Of a stretch of DNA of 64,000 bases, positions 16,627 through 39,160 are shown in pieces. Origin of the DNA: a virus. The stretch's first letter is position 1; each line of letters begins with the position of its first letter. The translations under genes were made by a program, and so were the position numbers. The notes beneath the pieces were generated by a model, which had not been told where the DNA came from, did no database searches, and worked only from the letters and a program-made list of their open reading frames with translations. The stretch spans positions 1-64,000 of the IMG/VR virus record IMGVR_UViG_3300049432_000151; one strand, written 5' to 3'.

Positions 16627-16699
16627 AAACGAGACTCAATTTAGGCAACGTGTCTCGTTTTGTCAATAGAAACTTCTTACGAAGTCTCGAATACGCGAC
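16620..16699. promoter_or_regulatory. Lysis/lysogeny switch: leftward sigma70 promoter and candidate operators
   Basis: Minus strand TTGACA(16666-16661)-N17-TAAATT(16643-16638); GTCTC-N6-GAGAC at 16620-16635, GTCTC-N6-GCGAC at 16684-16699, extra GTCTC half-site at 16652. Confidence 0.72.
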
Positions 16700-16715
16700 T
16701 ACCGTGCGGGAAGGA

Positions 16716-17696
16716 ATGCCGAAAAGATCGTCGGGAACGTCGCCGCGCGGCAGTGGCGGAGCCGTGGCTACGAGACAAATTGCGCTCCGGCAACTGGCTG
16801 CTAAGCTCGCAGCGCTGATCCCATCCGGCGCGGTCGACGCAGCCGCTCACGAAACAGGATTGAACCGGTCGACGATCTATAAATGGGCGCGTGGTCAACA
16901 GCAACCCGGCGCTATCGACTTGGCCGTGCTGGCGAACTACCTCGGAGTGATGGTCTCGGACCTTCTCGAAGACAAGCCGCTTCCTCGTGAGGCGACGCCG
17001 TACGAACGGAACGCAGCGTACAGACACCTCATTAACAGTCTCGAGCAAGTATCAGAAGCCGACCGCGAAGAAGTGATTCGGCAAGCCCTGTGGGTAGTGG
17101 CGCGGATCCGAGTTTCAGCTCTGCCGACCATCGTGCCGCTCGCCGAGAACGTGATCGCGTTCCCGACGCAACCGGACGATAGTGGCGATTTTCCCCCGCC
17201 GCCGATCGAGCCCTCCGATTTCATCGAGAAAGACACGGACTACCCGCGGCCGCTGCACACGTGGGTTCTGGAAGTGCCGGAGGTGGCTGCAGGCCCGCCG
17301 CGCCATGACGACGTTCTCCTCCCTACCTCGGAAGCTGAAGTGCTGAACACGTTTCGAGAAGCCGTTCCGAGCACAGCTCGCGAAGTCCGCGACGACCGCG
17401 TCCGCGTCATCAAGATCTACGGGAACTCAATGCATCCGGTGTTGCGCAACGGTTGGAAGGTTCGGATCGACCCCGCGCGATCGCTGTTCAGGCCCGGCAA
17501 AGCGATCGTTATGGTCTACATCAAGGACGAAGGATCGACGATCGGCCTCCTAGCCGAAGATGGCAAAGGAGGACTGAAGATCGTTAAGAGGAACCCCGAT
17601 TACGGTGGACCCGTGGAGATCCCGTTACGTGCCGGCGAGTGGTACCCGGTCGGCACGGTGACCACGATCGTCGAGGCGCCGGTGGACATCGAATGA
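16716..17696 (+). CDS. CI-like repressor (XRE HTH plus S24 peptidase-like domain)
   Basis: AAHETGLNRSTIYKWARG HTH, VAAG cleavage-type site, GNSMHP, NPDY. Confidence 0.85.
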   Translation: MPKRSSGTSPRGSGGAVATRQIALRQLAAKLAALIPSGAVDAAAHETGLNRSTIYKWARGQQQPGAIDLAVLANYLGVMVSDLLEDKPLPREATPYERNAAYRHLINSLEQVSEADREEVIRQALWVVARIRVSALPTIVPLAENVIAFPTQPDDSGDFPPPPIEPSDFIEKDTDYPRPLHTWVLEVPEVAAGPPRHDDVLLPTSEAEVLNTFREAVPSTAREVRDDRVRVIKIYGNSMHPVLRNGWKVRIDPARSLFRPGKAIVMVYIKDEGSTIGLLAEDGKGGLKIVKRNPDYGGPVEIPLRAGEWYPVGTVTTIVEAPVDIE

Positions 17697-20617: not shown

Positions 20618-20656
20618 GTGCGTCGCCGCTTCGTCTTCTGCGCCGGCACCGCGACC
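20618..20656 (+). pseudogene. Truncated copy 1 of small gene X
   Basis: Encodes (M)RRRFVFCAGTAT, matching the 25110 gene; similarity ends just before the hydrolase 3' end. Confidence 0.7.
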
Positions 20657-20675
20657 GAAGGCCCCCGACTTACTC

Positions 20676-22197: not shown

Positions 22198-22426
22198 ATG
22201 CTTCGACGCTATGTCTTCTGCGCGGGTACCGCGACGTTGAGCGCAGCCGGTGGGCAACATCGTCGAGAACTGTGGATTGGCGTCGAGCTCGAGTCTCCGC
22301 GTGGGCGTCGACGTGCGAGCCTTCTCACGAGAGCATGGCTATGACCTCGTTCCCGCGGAGGCCTTCAGCGCCGAGGAGTTGGCCTCGATCGGTGTCGGCA
22401 CCTTCGCTCACCTTCAAATCGTGTAG
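22198..22426 (+). pseudogene. Frameshifted copy 2 of small gene X
   Basis: MLRRYVFCAGTATLSAAGGQHRRELWIGVE, then a shift near 22290 into LRVGVDVRAFSREHGYDLVPAEAFSAEELASIGVGTFAHLQIV*. Confidence 0.8.
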
Positions 22427-24783: not shown

Positions 24784-24951
24784 GGATTTTTTCCGTCATC
24801 ATACGCCACCGTCTGGTCAGACAGCGACGGTTCCGAATCGGCTTCGCAAACCGGTCGTGTCGACCGGTGTCACTGGCGCCACTGGCGCGGTCCTTCAATG
24901 GGGCAGAAGGCACTGGACTGACCGTGGCCTTCGAATGCTACGATGATCCCC

Positions 24952-25014
24952 GAATCGTGGATGGGCTGAGCGACTAACCTTCCCGAGCTTTCGGTCAGCT
25001 CATTGCGTAGATTC
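24952..25014 (+). ncRNA. Candidate structured small RNA, copy A
   Basis: Preceded by TGcTACGAT; GAATC...GATTC closing stem; near-identical to 25768-25828. Confidence 0.5.
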
Positions 25015-25109
25015 GTGTCAGCTAACTCCTGGCTTTACCCGGCCGAAGCCTCTGATTTCCGGCGCGTACCGCAGTTCAACCGCGCAATGGTCCATCGCAT
25101 GATCGCTTC

Positions 25110-25358
25110 GTGCACCGCCGCTTCGTCTTCTGCGCCGGCACGGCCACCATCAGAGCCGGTGGCCACGAACACCGCCGAGAATTATGGATCGGAGTGGAAG
25201 TTCGGCGTGACGTCGATGTCCGCGCATTCTCGCGAGATCACGGTTATGACCTGGTGCCGGCGGACGACTTCACCGCTGACGAGCTGGCGTCGATCGGCGT
25301 CCGGACGTTCGCTCTCCTGCACATCGACGGGGACTGCGGAAATACTTCCTCACCGTAG
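25110..25358 (+). CDS. Small gene X, intact copy (82 aa, unknown function)
   Basis: Homology to the two degenerate copies shows many synonymous differences. Confidence 0.75.
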   Translation: MHRRFVFCAGTATIRAGGHEHRRELWIGVEVRRDVDVRAFSRDHGYDLVPADDFTADELASIGVRTFALLHIDGDCGNTSSP

Positions 25359-25408
25359 TAGACTTGCAGCAGACGCAACGGTAGCTCGGCCCTACTCGCG
25401 CCCACCTA

Positions 25409-25750
25409 ATGCCAGTCTGCGGCACTGTCGTTGCGCCATCGGCGGACACGAACACTCCTCGTGTGCCGATCGGCGGGACGCGACTAGAACTCGCAATCAA
25501 ACGCGCGATCGCCGACATCGAAGCCTCGGGGCGCATGGTGCTGATGCCGGCGGACTTCGGCATCCCGGAACGCCGCTGCTTCACCCCGACCGAGCTCGCG
25601 CCGTTCCTCTACATCTGCCCGAAGACGGTGCAGCGGATGATTGATGACGAGATCCTGCTCGCGCTTCCGATGCGCGAGCGCGGTGAGCCGAAGATTCCCT
25701 ACTCCGCGGTCGTGTACTACTTCCTGCGGCAGCAGGGAGCGATGAACTGA
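25409..25750 (+). CDS. Excisionase/MerR-like HTH protein
   Basis: FTPTELAPFLYICPKTVQRMIDDEILLA...KIPYSAV. Confidence 0.65.
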   Translation: MPVCGTVVAPSADTNTPRVPIGGTRLELAIKRAIADIEASGRMVLMPADFGIPERRCFTPTELAPFLYICPKTVQRMIDDEILLALPMRERGEPKIPYSAVVYYFLRQQGAMN

Positions 25751-25767
25751 TCTGTTACGATTGCCGC

Positions 25768-25828
25768 GAATCGTGGATGGGCTGACCTACTGACCCTGCC
25801 CGAGTTTTCGGTCAGCTCATCCAGATTC
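25768..25828 (+). ncRNA. Candidate structured small RNA, copy B
   Basis: Preceded by TGtTACGAT; GAATC-G-TGGATGGGCTGACC...GGTCAGCTCATCCA-GATTC long stem. Confidence 0.5.
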
Positions 25829-25833
25829 ACTTC

Positions 25834-26007
25834 CTACTTCTCCTTCCGAACTCCCTTGAACGGCTTGTCATCGGACGTCTTCCGGTCCAAGAACTTGCCG
25901 GTCTCCGTGTCGCGCTTCGTCCAGTCGTCCGTCTTCGGGTTGTGAACCTGAGAACGGTCACGAACTGCGCCGACGCGACCGGGGCCCTTCGGTGGGTTTG
26001 TTGCCAT
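25834..26007 (-). CDS. 57-aa basic protein of the type often found next to HTH-ImmA/IrrE genes
   Basis: Strong SD GGAGGTG; MATNPPKGPGRVGAVRDRSQVHNPKTDDWTKRDTETGKFLDRKTSDDKPFKGVRKEK; below the ORF-track cutoff. Confidence 0.8.
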   Translation of the reverse strand: MATNPPKGPGRVGAVRDRSQVHNPKTDDWTKRDTETGKFLDRKTSDDKPFKGVRKEK

Positions 26008-26035
26008 TGTCTCTCACCTCCTCTCTATTGAGATT

Positions 26036-27124
26036 TCAGCGCACAACGCGCAGCGCCGTCTGATCTTTGAAATAGATGTCTCGCAGCCTTGACTCGACCG
26101 TCATGAGGTTGTGCTCGAAGTCGTCGGCGGCCCAGCCGAGGTCCGTCTCGCACGTCGTGATCACCTTCTGCATCAGCGACGGCTGCTCGAGCGTTATGTC
26201 GAGTTCACGCGGTTCCCTCTTCCGGAATCCAAGAGCGGAAAACTTTGACCACATGTAGCGCTGCTGGTTTGCGGTCAGTTTGCCCAGATCACCGGCACGT
26301 TTCAGCAGCGATGCCATGGATACCTTCCAGTACGGTTTCAAGCGGGCAAGCTGCGGCAACGTGATGTTGTTCAGGCTCGTGCGAATGTCGACCGCAGGCA
26401 TCAAGAACTCCGCTGCGAACGCGTCTGCCTGCGCCTCCATCTCCGGGTTTGGGTGCGTGTGCATGACCAAGTGGCCGACCTCATGCGCAAGCGAATAGCG
26501 GTACCGGTCTCCCGGGAGACAGGAGTTCAGAAAGAACATCGGCGGCAAGCCTGGGTACCAGCGGCTAACCGCATCGAGGAGCGTCGTCTCAAAATCGAGC
26601 ACGAACACCAGGCCACCTGCGCCCTCAACAAGTTGAGTGAGGTTGCTCACCGGGCCCGACGGCACGCGCCACATGGCGCGGACGTGGCGTGCTATCTCAA
26701 CGGCGTCCCGCGATTCGAGCGGGTCGTCGACGTCGATCAGCGGAAAGACATAGTCGCTCTCGAAGTCGATCGATTTGAGAATCTCTTCGAGGTGAATCCG
26801 AATGGTGTCAATGAGCGCGTGAAGGCGCGCGAGCTGCCTCTTCGGCATGATCGCGCGCTTACGGTGGTAAATCTCCGTCACCCCTGTGCCGCTGTGCCGC
26901 CGGCCTGGCCGAGTAAAAAAGGCGGGTGTCCGCCCAAGCTGTGCGCTCAGCCGCTCGAGGAAAGCGTTATCAACGCCAGTCTCCTGAGCTTCCATCCTCG
27001 ACAGCTTTCCTTGAGCGATCTCCAACCGCGCAGCGAGCTCCGTCTGCGTCAAGCCATCGGCTTCGCGCGCGAGCACGAGCATTTCTGGATTGATCGAGAT
27101 GCGATCGCCGAACAAGTCAGCCAT
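26036..27124 (-). CDS. XRE-HTH plus ImmA/IrrE (DUF955) metallopeptidase
   Basis: LAREADGLTQTELA HTH; RYSLAHEVGH (HExxH); EAQADAFAAEFLMP. Confidence 0.93.
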   Translation of the reverse strand: MADLFGDRISINPEMLVLAREADGLTQTELAARLEIAQGKLSRMEAQETGVDNAFLERLSAQLGRTPAFFTRPGRRHSGTGVTEIYHRKRAIMPKRQLARLHALIDTIRIHLEEILKSIDFESDYVFPLIDVDDPLESRDAVEIARHVRAMWRVPSGPVSNLTQLVEGAGGLVFVLDFETTLLDAVSRWYPGLPPMFFLNSCLPGDRYRYSLAHEVGHLVMHTHPNPEMEAQADAFAAEFLMPAVDIRTSLNNITLPQLARLKPYWKVSMASLLKRAGDLGKLTANQQRYMWSKFSALGFRKREPRELDITLEQPSLMQKVITTCETDLGWAADDFEHNLMTVESRLRDIYFKDQTALRVVR

Positions 27125-27773
27125 TCTTCTTCTCGTCTGATTTGGATTTGAAGGGCACAACCTTCGCTGCGTCCTTCTTTACTCTTACGGTCGTCTGCGG
27201 CGCTGAATGCCGGGGTGGCATCGCGGAGATCGGCTGCGTGCGCGCGTTCGGGTAAGGAAGATCGATCGAGTAGGCGACGCTGTCGACGCCAACCTGCTTC
27301 GGGAAGACGACGTGAGCGGATGAGATCGCGGTACCGAAACGATCCAGGATGTAGCCAGCATCTAGACAAGCTGTGCTTTCAAGGAAGCCAGCCATGTCGC
27401 CATTTGCGAATTGCAGCGACTGCTGAGTCTCAATGTTCCGCGACCGCTTGTGAGAATCGAGCTTTTTGAAACGTACGCAAGCCGCGCCGTCGATGACCAA
27501 CAGGAACATACCGCGCCGTTCCACAAATTGAATCCCGGCGACACCGTCGAACCGGCGCTTCACAGCGGCGACGATAAAATCGCGAATGTCAGAAGCCTGA
27601 CTGCGAGCGTGAAGCTTGATCCTCTGCTCCTCCGGCAGGCGAAAATACTCGTCGAACCCTTCATGAACGCAGTTGGCGATCTCCTGAAGATGCGGCCGGA
27701 GGTGCCGTTTGACCTTCTCTCTCGGTATCCAGACTTTGACGTCACCCTTCACTTTTACCTCTCTCTCTAACAT
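27117..27773 (-). CDS. Putative toxin-like partner of the HTH-ImmA/IrrE protein
   Basis: VRFKKLD...SRNIETQQ...LDAGYILD; overlaps the peptidase start. Confidence 0.55.
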   Translation of the reverse strand: MLEREVKVKGDVKVWIPREKVKRHLRPHLQEIANCVHEGFDEYFRLPEEQRIKLHARSQASDIRDFIVAAVKRRFDGVAGIQFVERRGMFLLVIDGAACVRFKKLDSHKRSRNIETQQSLQFANGDMAGFLESTACLDAGYILDRFGTAISSAHVVFPKQVGVDSVAYSIDLPYPNARTQPISAMPPRHSAPQTTVRVKKDAAKVVPFKSKSDEKKNG

Positions 27774-27832
27774 GTTGAATTTGCTGCTTGTGGGCGAGCG
27801 GACACGAAAGAGATTTGCTTTTGATCCTCTCG

Positions 27833-27860
27833 ATTATACAGGGCGATTGACCCCTGTCAA
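27833..27860 (-). promoter_or_regulatory. Consensus sigma70 promoter with overlapping inverted repeats
   Basis: TTGACA(27860-27855)-N16-TATAAT(27838-27833); ACAGGG-N8-CCCTGT and TTGAC-N4-GTCAA overlap it. Confidence 0.8.
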
Positions 27861-27979
27861 CGCCAAAAGTCGGCCTTTCCTGGAATCGTCGCGGGGACAG
27901 GTCCGGACAAATTCGACTCCCTGATCACCCCGGCCTAACTCGCCTCATCGGACAGGCCGGGTCTAGCACCCTGCGCGGC

Positions 27980-28189
27980 ATGAAGATGCCCTGCACTGAT
28001 CCGAACTGCTCCGAAGGCAAGCTCACCGTCATCCGCTCGCGCCATTACCCCGAGGCATCGCAGACGCGGCGTGTCTACCGTTGCGACCGATGCGGCCGGC
28101 TCGCTTCGTCCAGTGAAAAGCTGACGAACGGCAACCGGGCGTCGACCTACCTGCCGCCCGCGAAAAAGTTCTCGCCATCCACCTGCTAG
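27980..28189 (+). CDS. Ogr/Delta- or NrdR-like zinc ribbon, possible late regulator
   Basis: CTDPNC...VIRSR...RRVYRCDRCG...SSE. Confidence 0.65.
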   Translation: MKMPCTDPNCSEGKLTVIRSRHYPEASQTRRVYRCDRCGRLASSSEKLTNGNRASTYLPPAKKFSPSTC

Positions 28190-31884: not shown

Positions 31885-32514
31885 ATGCTTCCCTACGTCC
31901 AGTCGTACAACGACCCGAAGATCGAGAAGGCGTATCACCGCTACCTGAAGGGTGACTCTCAGCGGGCCATCGCCAAGGCGCTGAACATCCCGCCGCGGAC
32001 GGTCGCTCGGTACTGCAAGAAGGACGGCTGGCAATCGGAGCGTGAAGCCCGTCACGTGGCAGCAGAGGCCCCAAACGTGGCAGCAGTGGCAGCAACCGTC
32101 CAGACGCCTGCTGCCACCGAGGGACCTGTTCCGGAGAGTCGGATGGTCGGCATGGAGCGGATGCTCGGCGCACAGCAGCAGCTCACCGGGCTACTCGTCG
32201 AGGCGTTCAAGAAGGACGTCGAGAAGACGATCGCCGACGCGGCCACTGTCGGCAAGCCGATGAGCCGGTCGCAAATCGCGCAGCTCACGTCGCTCGGCAA
32301 CAACCTGCTAACGATGCAGCGCAAGGCGTGGTGTGTACCGGACAAGATCGAGACGAAGGACACCACGCCAACCGCGCCTGATCGCGTGCGCACCCTGAAG
32401 GATGACGAACTCCAGAACCGCCTCACCGAGGCCCGTCGAGCTCGAGAAGAGGCCGATCGAAGAAGAGGAGCTGCTGCTCCTCGAGGAGGATCTGCGACGC
32501 CGAGCGTCAACTAG
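31885..32514 (+). CDS. terS: Terminase small subunit
   Basis: N-terminal HTH (SQRAIAKALNIPPRTVARY...GW); immediately upstream of TerL. Confidence 0.75.
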   Translation: MLPYVQSYNDPKIEKAYHRYLKGDSQRAIAKALNIPPRTVARYCKKDGWQSEREARHVAAEAPNVAAVAATVQTPAATEGPVPESRMVGMERMLGAQQQLTGLLVEAFKKDVEKTIADAATVGKPMSRSQIAQLTSLGNNLLTMQRKAWCVPDKIETKDTTPTAPDRVRTLKDDELQNRLTEARRAREEADRRRGAAAPRGGSATPSVN

Positions 32515-33958
32515 CCTGCACGAGTTCGTTGCGCAGGCGTGGCACGTCGTCGAGCCCGCAGTACCGTTCAAAGACAACTGGCACGTCGGCGCGATCTGCG
32601 AGCACCTCGAGGCCATCTACCGGGGCGAGATCCTGCGGCTGCTCATCAACGTTCCATTCCGCACGGCGAAGTCCACGATTGTCAGCGTCATGTCACCGGC
32701 GTGGCAGTGGATTCATCGGCCGGCTCACAAGTTCCTCTGCGGGTCGTACGCGGCGAAGCTGGCGATCCGCGACAACCTCAAGATGCGGCGGCTGATCCAG
32801 TCGCCGTGGTACCAGGAGCGCTGGGGCCGCGGCTTCAACCTCGTCGACAACAGCGACTGGGGCGACCCTGACGGCTTCAAGCTCACGGACGACCAGAACC
32901 AGAAGGTCCGGTTCGAGAACGACCGCACCGGATACCGCATCGCGTTCGGGTTCGACGGCGGCGTGATGGGCGATGGCGGCAACACCGTCATCATCGACGA
33001 CCCTCACGATCGCAACCAGGCACACTCCGAGAAAGAGCGCGACAGGCATCTCACCACGTTCGACGAGGCGGTTACGACTCGTCTCAATGACCCAACGCGA
33101 GATTCGATCGTGATCATCATGCAGCGACTGCATGAGAGCGATCTCTCAGGTCATGTGCTCGCGAAGGGCGGCTACGAACACGTCCTGATCCCGATGCACT
33201 ACGACCCGAAGCGGTCGCGTGTGACGGTAACCGGGTGGGAAGATCCGCGCACGGAAGAGGGCCAGTTGATGCACCCCGATCGGTTCCCTGAGCCGGTCGT
33301 CGCGCAGATCGAAAAGGACATCGGCCCGTACGCGGCGGCCGGGCAGCTCGAGCAGCGACCCGCGCCATCGGAAGGCGGCATCCTCAAAAAGCAATGGTGG
33401 CGGTTCTACAACGACGACGAGCTGCCGGAGACGTTCGATCGCGAGTGCCAGATGTGGGATCTCGCGTTCAAGAAGACAAAGACGTCGAACTTCATCGCTG
33501 GCCAGGCGTGGGGCAAGAAGGGAGCGAACTGCTACCTGAAGCCCGACGAGGTCTACGCGCGGCTCGACTTCCCCGAAACGATCAAAGCAATGAAGGCGTT
33601 CTCGGTCCGGTATCCGCGCGGAGCTAAGCTGGTCGAGGACAAGGCCAACGGGCCCGCGGCGATCTCGACGCTGAAAAATGACATCGCGGGCCTCATGCCC
33701 GTGGGCGAGGACGGCGGAGCCGAGGGCGTTGCGCATTCAGTCGCTCCATACATAGCCGCTGGCAACGTCTTCCTGCCGAACCCATACGACCGCCAGGGCA
33801 ATCAGCGGCCTGACCGCGCTTGGGTATTGAGGCTCATCGCAAACGCGGCAACGTTTCCGAACGGGTCCATTCCGGCCGGGTCGCACGGTGACGACATCGT
33901 CGCGATGGTTTACGCAATTCACTACCTGATGCACCGACCGAAGGCGAGGGTGATCTGA
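32402..33958 (+). CDS. terL: Terminase large subunit
   Basis: INVPFRTAKS, IIDDPH, IIMQRLHESDL, QLEQRP, WDLAFK, VEDKANG, HGDDIV. Confidence 0.95.
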   Translation: MTNSRTASPRPVELEKRPIEEEELLLLEEDLRRRASTSLHEFVAQAWHVVEPAVPFKDNWHVGAICEHLEAIYRGEILRLLINVPFRTAKSTIVSVMSPAWQWIHRPAHKFLCGSYAAKLAIRDNLKMRRLIQSPWYQERWGRGFNLVDNSDWGDPDGFKLTDDQNQKVRFENDRTGYRIAFGFDGGVMGDGGNTVIIDDPHDRNQAHSEKERDRHLTTFDEAVTTRLNDPTRDSIVIIMQRLHESDLSGHVLAKGGYEHVLIPMHYDPKRSRVTVTGWEDPRTEEGQLMHPDRFPEPVVAQIEKDIGPYAAAGQLEQRPAPSEGGILKKQWWRFYNDDELPETFDRECQMWDLAFKKTKTSNFIAGQAWGKKGANCYLKPDEVYARLDFPETIKAMKAFSVRYPRGAKLVEDKANGPAAISTLKNDIAGLMPVGEDGGAEGVAHSVAPYIAAGNVFLPNPYDRQGNQRPDRAWVLRLIANAATFPNGSIPAGSHGDDIVAMVYAIHYLMHRPKARVI

Positions 33959-39073: not shown

Positions 39074-39130
39074 GACGTCGGGAGCTAACGCAGCCGCAAC
39101 CGTTCCACTCATTCACCCTTCAACCGCACG

Positions 39131-39160
39131 AGGCCGCCGCGAGGCGGTCTTTGTCTTTTC
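39131..39160 (+). terminator. Hairpin with U-rich tail before the capsid gene
   Basis: AGGCCGCC-GCGA-GGCGGTCT followed by TTGTCTTTT. Confidence 0.5.

What the first reader, a model, noticed from the sequence alone, without database searches (positions are those of the whole stretch)
24936..25828. Duplicated candidate structured sRNA, each copy with its own extended -10 promoter
Seen: two ~60-nt elements (24952-25014, 25768-25828), both 6-7 nt after TGnTACGAT. They share a GAATC/GATTC closing stem, an ATGGGCTGA/TCAGCTCAT stem and a CCGA-GYTT-TCGG hairpin, and differ mainly in a 13-14 nt bulge (GCGACTAACCTTC vs CCTACTGACCCTGC). They flank gene X and the HTH gene. Inference: an undescribed phage sRNA with a constant scaffold and variable loop (guide, antitoxin or protein decoy); alternatively a DNA recombination hairpin bounding a cassette.
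Basis: partly seen in the sequence, partly recalled or inferred. Interest (0 to 1): 0.7.

Follow-up and report, generated by a model that had tools for sequence, protein, structure and literature searches.

The report
Duplicated promoter-plus-hairpin module in soil phage
An uncultivated soil phage carries two copies of an ~80-base unit, a promoter-like box followed by a long imperfect hairpin, which most likely marks the structured start of two rightward transcripts but has no relative anywhere and no expression data.

Summary
Two co-oriented ~80-nt units (24936-25016, 25753-25829) each consist of TGnTACGAT, a non-conserved 6-7-nt spacer and a 62-66-nt imperfect hairpin. They flank gene X and an excisionase-type HTH gene in an 85-kb IMG/VR phage record from soil. 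They are the only two copies in that record. The 18 differences fall mostly outside the box and the stems. The only two changes inside stems are G-C to G.U, which pair only on the + strand.

No known family matches: Rfam gave 0 hits, there is no tRNA, and neither copy passes the terminator scan. I found no homolog in 50,697 phage records, IMG/VR, JGI metagenomes, two related phage contigs or 17 genomes. Covariation therefore cannot be tested beyond the two copies, and no RNA run exists.

My best reading (about 0.45) is a duplicated rightward promoter whose transcript begins with the hairpin, acting in cis. Copy 1 leads into gene X-HTH. Copy 2 fires antisense into an inserted, convergent 57-aa/HTH-ImmA module and towards the late genes.

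The recombination-site idea lacks any recombinase in the record. This is a real but orphan element of moderate interest.

The parts
24936..24944 (+). TGCTACGAT, an extended -10-like box (copy 1)
   Evidence: The same TGnTAnnnT form lies 8, 9 and 21 nt before same-strand start codons at three other intergenic places of the record.
24951..25016 (+). Hairpin copy 1: closing stem CGAATC/GATTCG, an internal loop, a 10-pair main stem with G.U pairs, a 14-nt 5' bulge and an apical CCGA-GCTT-TCGG
   Evidence: The covariance model scores it at 91.4 bits. The + strand folds at -27.2 kcal/mol (z -2.3), the - strand at -19.2 (z -0.2).
25031..25050 (+). Weak terminator-like hairpin followed by TCTGATTTCC, downstream of copy 1
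   Evidence: Listed by the simple scan, but not chosen in the minimum-energy fold of 24950-25065. Doubtful.
25110..25358 (+). Gene X, 82 aa, from an uncharacterised ~75-aa family, with its own -10-like box 6 nt before the GTG start
   Evidence: 39 representatives at E<=1e-3; alignment A4; no Pfam or PHROG hit; upstream alignment.
25409..25750 (+). HTH gene, 113 aa, excisionase/MerR-type
   Evidence: The window's own protein matches HTH_17 only weakly (E 0.044). Its ortholog in L032 matches HTH_17 at 3.5e-8. The two proteins align at 37% identity, E 2e-12.
25753..25761 (+). TGTTACGAT, an extended -10-like box (copy 2), 2 nt after the HTH stop codon
25767..25829 (+). Hairpin copy 2: GAATC/GATTC plus a 14-pair stem, with the same apical region
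   Evidence: The covariance model scores it at 89.8 bits. The + strand folds at -33.1 kcal/mol (z -5.0).
25834..26007 (-). 57-aa ORF, convergent with copy 2; any rightward transcript from copy 2 is antisense to it
   Evidence: phrog_12550 at 2e-25; 61-70% identical to small proteins of Streptococcus, Staphylococcus and Microcystis phages; third-position G+C 0.77.
25978..25993 (+). Terminator-like hairpin followed by GGGTTTGTTG on the + strand, at the 5' end of the 57-aa ORF. It would end a ~235-nt antisense RNA.
   Evidence: a simple consensus scan only. The number of such sites in the region equals the shuffle expectation.
26036..27160 (-). HTH-ImmA/IrrE (Peptidase_M78) gene of the convergent module. 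With the 218-aa gene (27117-27773) and the perfect TTGACA-16-TATAAT promoter (27860-27833), it is inserted relative to the related phage L032.

Best explanation
The unit is a duplicated promoter-leader cassette read on the + strand. TGnTACGAT acts as an extended -10 promoter of the housekeeping-sigma type. Transcription starts about 7-8 nt downstream, at the G of GAATC, so the RNA begins with the 62-66-nt irregular hairpin and has essentially no single-stranded 5' tail.

The hairpin works in cis on its own transcript. It acts either as a 5'-terminal protective or insulating structure, or as a polymerase-modifying leader.

Copy 1 supplies an upstream, leadered transcript for gene X-HTH, which also has its own leaderless-type promoter. 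Copy 2 fires into the convergent 57-aa/HTH-ImmA module that is inserted here. It makes RNA antisense to that module and may carry rightward transcription on towards the Zn-ribbon gene and the packaging and late genes.

Shown: the repeat itself, its boundaries, the fold common to both copies, the + strand bias of the stem changes, and the use of the same box type before other genes.

Inferred: that the boxes fire, where transcription starts, where the RNAs end, and what the hairpin does.
For: 1. The box sits at a fixed distance while the spacer is not conserved. The 9-mer differs only at its free 'n' position, whereas the 6-7-nt spacer differs at 4 of 6 aligned columns.

2. Differences avoid the box and the stems. 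Only 2 of 50 box or paired columns differ, against 16 of 32 other columns (Fisher 1.3e-6, but the structure was read from these same sequences). A structure-free test on the two longest identity runs gives p = 0.019.

3. Both stem changes are C/T opposite G, and one further pair is G.U in both copies. On the - strand these become C.A mismatches, and copy 1 folds no better than shuffles there (z -0.19, against -2.33 on the + strand).

4. TGnTAnnnT is rare in the record: 15 sites, 6 of them intergenic. Of the 4 intergenic sites away from the element, 3 lie 8, 9 and 21 nt before a same-strand start codon. That placement fits the -10-to-start distances described for leaderless-rich bacteria: ANNNT at -6 to -13, and leaders of 5 nt or less counted as leaderless (passages of PMC6448022).

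5. The hairpins are not protein-coding. A 1-nt indel shifts the frame between the copies on the - strand (read directly).

6. Neither simple promoter scan finds another + strand promoter-like site between 27.8 and 45 kb. The element-linked boxes and gene X's own box are thus the nearest recognisable rightward promoters upstream of the late genes.

7. There is a precedent. HK022 putL and putR are two ~70-nt RNAs of similar sequence downstream of early promoters, and putL is folded from the third transcribed base (passages of PMC9378689).
Against: - There is no transcript evidence at all. The only public run holding the stretch is the source soil DNA.
- With two sequences there is no compensatory change: 0 of 21 pairs changed on both sides. 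The conservation could partly reflect gene conversion between paralogous copies.
- TGnTAnnnT is not enriched in intergenic DNA over base composition. Shuffles give 9.0 +/- 3.0 against 6 observed, and 885 of 1000 shuffles give 6 or more.
- No -35 element is shared between the copies.
- Copy 1 is an unremarkable hairpin energetically, ranking 4,084 of 24,280 windows.
- Gene X has its own conserved upstream signals, so copy 1 is not needed for it.
- Copy 2 points at a convergent operon, which is an odd place for an mRNA promoter.
- The box ACGAT(T) can also pair with (G)AATCGT of the closing stem (read). If the box is itself transcribed from farther upstream, it could belong to an alternative fold rather than a promoter.
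- The host is unknown.
Confidence: 0.45

Rival explanations
1. The two copies are stand-alone trans-acting small RNAs. Each copy would make a short RNA with a constant hairpin scaffold and a divergent 13-14-nt bulge that pairs with a target or decoys a protein.
For: Each copy has its own promoter-like box. The bulge is the most divergent internal part. A weak hairpin followed by a T-rich run lies after copy 1 at 25031-25050, and a terminator-like site at 25978-25993 follows copy 2.
Against: The bulges are still 9 of 14 identical. Their longest pairing runs anywhere in the 85-kb phage are 10 nt (200 of 200 shuffled bulges do at least as well) and 14 nt (32 of 200). The terminator-like sites are weak, and the one after copy 1 does not form in the minimum-energy fold. 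The CRISPR-repeat, tRNA and all other Rfam models do not match the element. Host targets could not be searched because the host is unknown.
Confidence: 0.15
2. The hairpin is a put-like, polymerase-modifying leader. It would stay bound to the RNA polymerase that made it and make that polymerase terminator-resistant, so that rightward transcription crosses the inserted convergent module and the long late operon.
For: The layout matches HK022 put: two similar ~65-70-nt structured RNAs that begin at or near promoters (passages of PMC9378689). Both copies are co-oriented with the more than 35 kb of + strand late genes. A clear + strand hairpin with a T-run sits inside that operon at 39130-39151. 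No other + strand promoter-like site was seen upstream of the late genes.
Against: put is described as two stem-loops in a V shape. This element is one long stem with an apical mini-hairpin. The two copies are in tandem rather than divergent. Nothing here tests polymerase binding. The promoter scans are crude.
Confidence: 0.1
3. The hairpins are transcript ends rather than starts. They would be terminators, insulators or RNase III-type processing hairpins that bracket the gene X-HTH unit. Copy 2 would end both that unit and the convergent ImmA operon, and copy 1 would stop incoming transcription.
For: Copy 2 starts 17 nt after the HTH stop codon and 6 nt beyond the stop of the 57-aa ORF on the other strand. 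Copy 2 folds well on both strands, at -33.1 and -36.8 kcal/mol. Its 19-20 nearly continuous pairs are about the length I recall RNase III substrates to be (recalled, not from a call).
Against: Neither copy is followed by a T-run on either strand, and the terminator scan lists neither. The record does hold classical hairpin-plus-T-run sites, at 39130-39151 and at the 83.2-kb palindrome. Copy 1 follows no gene on either strand and folds poorly on the - strand. This reading also leaves the conserved box at a fixed distance unexplained.
Confidence: 0.1
4. The copies are DNA-level sites: recombination hairpins of the attC or IS200/IS605-end type, or protein-binding sites, that bound a cassette holding gene X-HTH.
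For: The repeats are direct, fold on the same strand and flank a two-gene segment.
Against: The 85-kb record, 87% complete, has no match to Phage_integrase, Resolvase or Y1_Tnp. The related contig L032 has X, HTH, Zn-ribbon gene and the 285/301-aa gene in the same order without the repeats, so X-HTH is backbone and not cargo. Source contigs show no joint or deletion form (contigs only, so this is weak). The two copies sit at opposite ends of their neighbouring - strand cargo.
Confidence: 0.07
5. The element is a short-leader mini-ORF attenuator. Both copies carry the in-frame mini-ORF GTG GAT GGG CTG xxx xxx stop (24957-24977 and 25773-25793). A ribosome translating it would melt the 5' arm of the hairpin.
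For: The mini-ORF is present in both copies, and its stop is kept through a TAA to TGA difference (read). Leaders of 5 nt or less count as leaderless in mycobacteria (passage of PMC6448022).
Against: The GTG lies 11-12 nt after the box, whereas start codons lie 6-8 nt after it at the leaderless-type genes of this record and at gene X. There is no Shine-Dalgarno sequence. Both internal differences change the amino acid. A stop within 7 codons, and one of three possible substitutions keeping a stop, are both easily chance.
Confidence: 0.05
6. The copies are a neutral remnant of a segmental duplication and have no function of their own.
For: There are only two copies, no homolog anywhere, and the region is an island with repeated gene X fragments.
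Against: The differences are clustered rather than spread (run test p = 0.019). The flanks show no residual similarity. Both changes in the stems preserve pairing.
Confidence: 0.08

Closest known systems
HK022 putL/putR polymerase-utilisation RNAs
   Same: Two copies in one phage, ~65-70 nt each, similar in sequence and irregularly paired. They lie at or just after promoters, and putL folds from the third transcribed base (passages of PMC9378689).
   Different: put forms two stem-loops in a V shape with a triplex. This element forms one long interrupted stem with an apical mini-hairpin. The put sites serve divergent early operons, whereas these copies are in tandem, 816 bp apart. No sequence relation was tested and no activity is known.
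5'-terminal stabilising stem-loops of bacterial and phage mRNAs (ompA-type; recalled, not from a call)
   Same: The hairpin is predicted to begin at the first transcribed bases with no free 5' tail.
   Different: Such stabilisers are usually short and are not conserved as a ~65-nt unit with a fixed apical hairpin and bulge. Stability was not measured here.
Lambda OOP-type short antisense RNA (recalled, not from a call)
   Same: Copy 2 has its own promoter-like box and points into the 3' end of a convergent gene (the 57-aa ORF). A possible end lies at 25978-25993.
   Different: The hairpin itself lies beyond the stop codon of the ORF. Copy 1 has no convergent gene. No RNA has been observed.
Q/AlpA-type late promoters with a promoter-proximal terminator
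   Same: A strong -10 box is followed closely by a hairpin, next to an HTH gene and upstream of late genes. ACGAT-type -10-like boxes figure in those systems; PalpB has CACGAT (passage of PMC9371919).
   Different: Those systems need a binding element between -35 and -10, a -10-like pause box in the initially transcribed region, and an intrinsic terminator with a U-tract. No second box and no U-tract are present here.

Membership tests
Any Rfam 15 family | Score at or above the family's gathering threshold | tested here: not met
   There were 0 matches in the whole window. In E-value mode over 24850-26050 only three chance-level rows appeared. The best on the element was mir-761 at 17 bits against a gathering score of 82, E 2.6.
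tRNA / tmRNA-like | Cloverleaf recognised by ARAGORN | tested here: not met
   0 genes in the window.
Intrinsic terminator | G+C-rich hairpin followed by a 7-8-nt U-tract (as stated in PMC9371919) | tested here: not met
   The hairpin is present, but the tails are GTGTCAGC and ACTTCCTA on the + strand and CGGGGATC and GCGGCAAT on the - strand. Neither copy is listed by the terminator scan.
HK022 put RNA | Two ~70-nt copies of similar sequence downstream of promoters | tested here: met
   Two copies, each with a promoter-like box 6-7 nt upstream. That the boxes are promoters is inferred.
HK022 put RNA | Two stem-loops joined at a bifurcation (V shape) | tested here: not met
   The consensus fold is a single interrupted stem of 17 pairs plus a 4-pair apical hairpin, with no bifurcation.
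HK022 put RNA | Cis antitermination through binding the beta' zinc-binding domain | not testable with these tools
   Needs transcription assays.
Integron attC / IS200-IS605 end hairpins | A cognate tyrosine recombinase (IntI) or Y1 transposase in the element or genome | tested here: not met
   PF00589, PF00239 and PF01797 each gave 0 matches in the 85-kb record. The record is 87% complete, so absence is not proven.
Integron attC / IS200-IS605 end hairpins | The hairpins bound mobile cargo | tested here: not met
   The enclosed genes X and HTH are backbone genes, kept in the same order next to the Zn-ribbon and 285/301-aa genes in L032, which has no repeats.
CRISPR repeat mimic (solitary repeat / RNA anti-CRISPR; recalled concept) | Similarity to a CRISPR repeat family | tested here: inconclusive
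   No Rfam CRISPR-DR model matches the element. The only CRISPR-DR row lies at 26011-26036, E 9.6. The host's own repeats are unknown.
Trans-acting base-pairing sRNA | A seed with better-than-chance complementarity to a target | tested here: inconclusive
   Within the phage there is none beyond shuffles. The host genome is unknown.

The most novel reading that the evidence does not exclude
The hairpin is a put-like RNA that modifies the RNA polymerase transcribing it. It would occur in a phage unrelated to the lambdoid HK022 group, and whose promoters look like those of leaderless-mRNA bacteria. It would be duplicated so that rightward transcription can run through an inserted, convergently transcribed ImmA-type module and on through the long late operon. 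Protein-independent RNA antitermination would then be a recurrent phage invention, and this would be a second structural class of it.
Probability: 0.1. Interest if true: 0.7.

Novelty: new member of a known kind. Interest (0 to 1): 0.35.

Why it matters
If the boxes fire, this is a compact, portable cassette of a promoter plus a structured 5' end, which a phage has copied to drive two transcription units. One of the two is aimed head-on at an inserted regulatory or defence-type module.

That would be a tidy example of how phages keep their own transcription programme running across acquired cargo. It would also be a candidate for a new cis-acting RNA class, either a 5' protection element or a polymerase-modifying leader.

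As it stands, the element is known from one uncultivated soil phage, with two copies, no relatives and no RNA data. Its value is that of a well-delimited candidate that can be tested with a few reporter constructs. It is not yet a discovery.

Tried and rejected
Homolog hunting all came back empty.
- IMG/VR scan with ATGGGCTGA-N8-30-TCAGCTCAT: 28 loci. None resembles the element outside the arms when inspected.
- IMG/VR scan with CCCGAGYTTTCGGTCAGC: 6 loci, all one coding family. Scan with CGAATCGTGGATGGGCTG: 2 loci, one coding family.
- JGI metagenome scan with GGATGGGCTGA-N10-30-GGTCAGCTCAT: 12 loci. Nine are one repeated hairpin directly before an ORF, and three are singletons. None is alike in loop or flanks.
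- blastn against 50,697 phage records: no match for the 1,251-bp region, and only E~3-9 noise for each 83-85-nt unit.
- Covariance model R1: only the two known copies in the record. It found 0 in the records of L031, L032, L045 and L046, one E 2.9 row in nine loci totalling 102 kb, and 0 in 17 genomes of the class of the one MAG that holds a gene X fragment.

Protein-anchored routes.
- HTH protein: no relative in genome contigs or viral contigs.
- ImmA protein: none in viral contigs.
- Gene X: L031 and L032, L045, and L046 and L047. The word-indexed protein search found only the window's own protein.
- I did not read L045-L047 by eye; they were covered only by the covariance model.

Expression. 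No RNA holder is listed. The only run is the source soil DNA. Laying it showed the source contig only, with no variants, joints or loose ends at the elements.

Ideas dropped.
- A remnant HTH-gene 3' end upstream of copy 1: the flank similarity is not significant.
- Protein coding through the hairpin on the - strand: the frame is not kept between the copies.
- Hammerhead-like CUGA motif: not conserved between the copies.
- Intergenic enrichment of TGNTANNNT as evidence: the binomial test gave 0.005, but composition-matched shuffles give more sites than observed. Only the placement argument is kept.
- Analogous box-plus-hairpin modules in the two related records: none. The one look-alike, CGAATTCGTG after TGCTACTTT in L032, lies inside a conserved coding stretch.

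Gene X function. There is no Pfam or PHROG hit. The profile search against PDB sequences gave only weak rows, best E 0.0064 with no stretch passing on its own.

Supplementary files of the papers were not opened. They may hold put alignments that I could not compare.
Full report
**What is there**

The window is the first 64 kb of an 85,049-bp IMG/VR virus record (linear, CheckV estimate 87% complete, 61.5% G+C). The only public run that holds the stretch is a soil metagenome, probably its source.

- TGCTACGAT lies at 24936-44 and TGTTACGAT at 25753-61.
- Each box is followed by a spacer of 7 or 6 nt that is not conserved.
- Then comes a 62-66-nt imperfect hairpin, at 24951-25016 and 25767-25829.

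The exact 18-mer GAATCGTGGATGGGCTGA and the 15-mer TTTCGGTCAGCTCAT are shared. The 18-mer occurs twice in the window, and 0 of 100 shuffles gave two matches. The gapped core occurs twice in the whole record, and TGNTACGAT occurs only at these two places in the window. Beyond the box on the left and GATTC on the right the flanks are unrelated: 118 of 500 and 26 of 500 shuffles score at least as high. The repeat is therefore a discrete unit of about 80 nt, present twice and 816-817 bp apart on the same strand.

**Structure**

RNAalifold on the two copies gives the structure I had written by hand:
- a 5-pair closing stem, GAATC/GATTC;
- two further pairs and a 10-pair main stem;
- a 14-nt 5' bulge;
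- an apical CCGA-GYTT-TCGG hairpin.

This makes 21 pairs in all. No pair has changed on both sides. Two pairs are G-C in copy 2 and G.U in copy 1, and one pair is G.U in both copies. All three become C.A mismatches on the - strand.

In line with this, copy 1 folds at -27.2 kcal/mol on the + strand (z -2.3) but only -19.2 (z -0.2) on the - strand. Copy 2 folds well on both strands, at -33.1 and -36.8.

Single-sequence folds disagree on the apical part, so only the stems and the small apical hairpin are common to both copies.

The 18 differences between the units are clustered. Only 2 fall in the 50 box or paired columns, against 16 in the other 32 columns. Fisher's test gives 1.3e-6, but the structure was derived from the same two sequences. 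A structure-free test on the two longest identity runs gives p = 0.019.

As raw hairpins the copies are not exceptional in this G+C-rich genome. They rank 287 (copy 2) and 4,084 (copy 1) among 24,280 windows of 70 nt.

**Not a known family**

- Rfam 15 at gathering thresholds gave 0 matches in the window.
- E-value mode on 24850-26050 gave three chance-level rows.
- ARAGORN found no tRNA or tmRNA.
- Neither copy has a T-run after the stem on either strand, and the terminator scan lists neither.
- The hairpin is not coding. The one ORF that crosses copy 2 on the - strand (25717-25830) has no start in copy 1, and a 1-nt indel shifts the frame.

**No relatives**

I searched by exact core patterns in IMG/VR and in JGI metagenomes. 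Every hit was a chance match to the arms or to a coding region when I looked at loops and flanks. blastn against 50,697 phage records gave nothing for the region and only E~3-9 noise for the units.

A covariance model built from the two copies recovers them at 91 and 90 bits. It finds nothing in the records of the two related phage contigs, in a MAG with a gene X fragment or in a further contig. It gives one E 2.9 row in 102 kb of loci and nothing in 17 genomes of that MAG's class.

No RNA run is listed. Laying the source run showed one contig across the region, with no variants and no joints.

**Context**

- To the left lie a CI-like repressor (HTH_3 plus Peptidase_S24, 16650-17696), then FG-GAP and TIR genes.
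- Next comes an island with a hydrolase and a 755-aa membrane/PPC protein on the - strand.
- Gene X (82 aa) belongs to an uncharacterised ~75-aa family with 39 representatives at E<=1e-3 among 1.84 billion proteins. It has no Pfam, PHROG or PDB relative.
- Two degenerate gene X starts lie at 20618 and 22198. The second is broken by a 7-nt insertion. This had been noted by the first stage.
- The HTH protein is of the excisionase/MerR type (HTH_17 through its L032 ortholog).
- To the right lie a Zn-ribbon gene (27980-28189), a 285-aa gene, terS, terL (32402-33958) and portal, followed by more than 30 kb of + strand late genes.

In the related contig L032 the order is X, HTH, Zn-ribbon gene, 301-aa gene, with only 63 nt between HTH and the Zn-ribbon gene. 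In the window, 2.2 kb lie between these two genes. This stretch holds copy 2 and a - strand module. The module consists of a 57-aa ORF (phrog_12550, 61-70% identical to small proteins of Streptococcus, Staphylococcus and Microcystis phages), an HTH-ImmA/IrrE fusion, a 218-aa gene and a perfect TTGACA-16-TATAAT promoter.

So X-HTH is backbone, and the elements are additions that bracket it. Neither L031 nor L032 has the element or an analogous module.

**Is the box a promoter?**

TGNTANNNT occurs 15 times in the record, and 6 of these lie in my crude intergenic set. This is not an enrichment over base composition: shuffled intergenic DNA gives 9.0 +/- 3.0 sites. The motif is in fact depleted in coding DNA.

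What counts is placement. Of the four intergenic sites away from the element, three lie 8, 9 and 21 nt before a same-strand start codon. Gene X and its L032 ortholog likewise have a -10-like hexamer 6-7 nt before the start.

That is the layout of leaderless genes. In Mycobacterium smegmatis 79% of mapped promoters have ANNNT at -6 to -13, and 24% of transcripts have leaders of 5 nt or less (passages of PMC6448022).

By that rule, transcription from the element boxes would start at the G of GAATC, which is the first base of the hairpin. The host is unknown. terL gave no taxonomic lead.

**Most likely mechanism**

I read the unit as a duplicated promoter-leader cassette transcribed rightward, whose RNA begins with the hairpin and acts in cis (confidence 0.45).

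Copy 1 gives a leadered transcript into gene X-HTH. Between them is only a weak, doubtful hairpin with a T-rich tail at 25031-25050. Copy 2 fires 2 nt after the HTH stop into the convergent module. Its RNA is antisense to the 57-aa ORF, with a possible end at 25978-25993, or it continues towards the late genes.

Neither simple scan sees another + strand promoter-like site between 27.8 and 45 kb, although these scans are insensitive.

What the hairpin does is inference. It could be a 5'-terminal protective structure. More boldly, it could be a polymerase-modifying leader like HK022 put, which also comes as two similar ~70-nt RNAs at promoters, with putL folded from its third base (passages of PMC9378689). 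The element fails the defining two-stem V shape of put, so it is not a member of that family. I give the functional analogy about 0.1.

**Rivals**

- Trans-acting sRNAs with a variable bulge (0.15). The bulges are 9 of 14 identical and have no better-than-chance targets in the phage (the energy scan agrees). No good terminators follow.
- Terminator, insulator or processing hairpins (0.10). The position of copy 2 fits, but there is no T-run, copy 1 follows no gene, and the conserved box is left unexplained. The record does use classical terminators elsewhere.
- DNA recombination site (0.07). No tyrosine recombinase, serine recombinase or Y1 transposase is in the record. X-HTH is backbone, and no deletion form appears in the source contigs.
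- Mini-ORF attenuator (0.05). Both copies hold GTG GAT GGG CTG xxx xxx TAA/TGA, but the GTG is 11-12 nt from the box, against 6-8 nt at the leaderless-type genes here.
- Neutral duplication remnant (0.08). The clustering of differences argues against it.
- A Q/AlpA-type promoter with a proximal terminator was considered (passages of PMC9371919). It needs a second -10-like box and a U-tract terminator, and neither is present.

**Verdict**

This is a real, sharply bounded, two-copy element on the + strand that has not been described before. It is most simply a promoter with a structured 5' leader that the phage has duplicated, with one copy facing an inserted convergent module.

It is an orphan: one genome, no relatives, no RNA data. 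The mechanism therefore rests on anatomy alone. Interest is 0.35, and I class it as a new member of a known kind (phage cis-acting or small structured RNA candidates).

The first of these might have supplied the homologous loci needed for a covariation test.

Noticed in passing
record G000 83,195-83,265 (outside the window): A near-perfect ~30-pair palindrome, by far the most stable 70-nt fold in the record (-60.4 and -55.2 kcal/mol on the two strands), followed by GCTTTTC. It may be a strong bidirectional terminator or another palindromic site.
   Followed up: partly
window 25110-25358; also 22198-22426 and 20618-20660: Gene X belongs to an uncharacterised ~75-aa family with 39 representatives at E<=1e-3 in 1.84 billion proteins and no Pfam, PHROG or PDB relative. 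Its conserved motifs are ELWIGIE and FSRDHGYDLIPADG. The copy at 22198 is split by a 7-nt insertion, and the copy at 20618 is cut after about 13 codons.
   Followed up: partly
window 25753-27979, compared with L032 1841-1903: Relative to a related phage contig, 2.2 kb are inserted between the HTH gene and the Zn-ribbon gene. The insert holds element copy 2 and a - strand module: the 57-aa ORF, an HTH-ImmA/IrrE fusion, a 218-aa gene and a perfect TTGACA-16-TATAAT promoter at 27860-27833.
   Followed up: partly
window 25834-26007 (-): The 57-aa ORF (phrog_12550) is 61-70% identical to small proteins in 16 phage records of Streptococcus, Staphylococcus and Microcystis. That is unusually conserved across phyla for a protein of unknown function.
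   Followed up: no
record G000 72,936 (-), 77,044 (-), 78,674 (+) (outside the window): Extended -10-like boxes TGnTA[CA]GxT lie 8, 9 and 21 nt before start codons, which suggests leaderless or near-leaderless genes. The motif TGNTANNNT is strongly depleted in coding DNA: 9 sites in about 75 kb of coding sequence.
   Followed up: partly
window 39130-39151 (+): A clear hairpin with a T-run (GAGGCCGCCGCGAGGCGGTCTT followed by TGTCTTTTCA) sits inside the + strand late operon, after the 786-aa head gene.
   Followed up: no
window 27925-27960 and L031 3935-3960: A shared CCGGCCTAAC...TCGGA string lies upstream of the Zn-ribbon gene in the window and upstream of gene X in L031. It may be a common regulatory site, or it may be chance.
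   Followed up: no
L033-L035, L038-L040, L042-L044 (metagenome contigs): A repeated hairpin lies directly before an ORF start in nine soil or sediment contigs and looks like a multicopy mobile element. It shares only the 11-nt arms with the phage element, so I judge the match to be chance.
   Followed up: no
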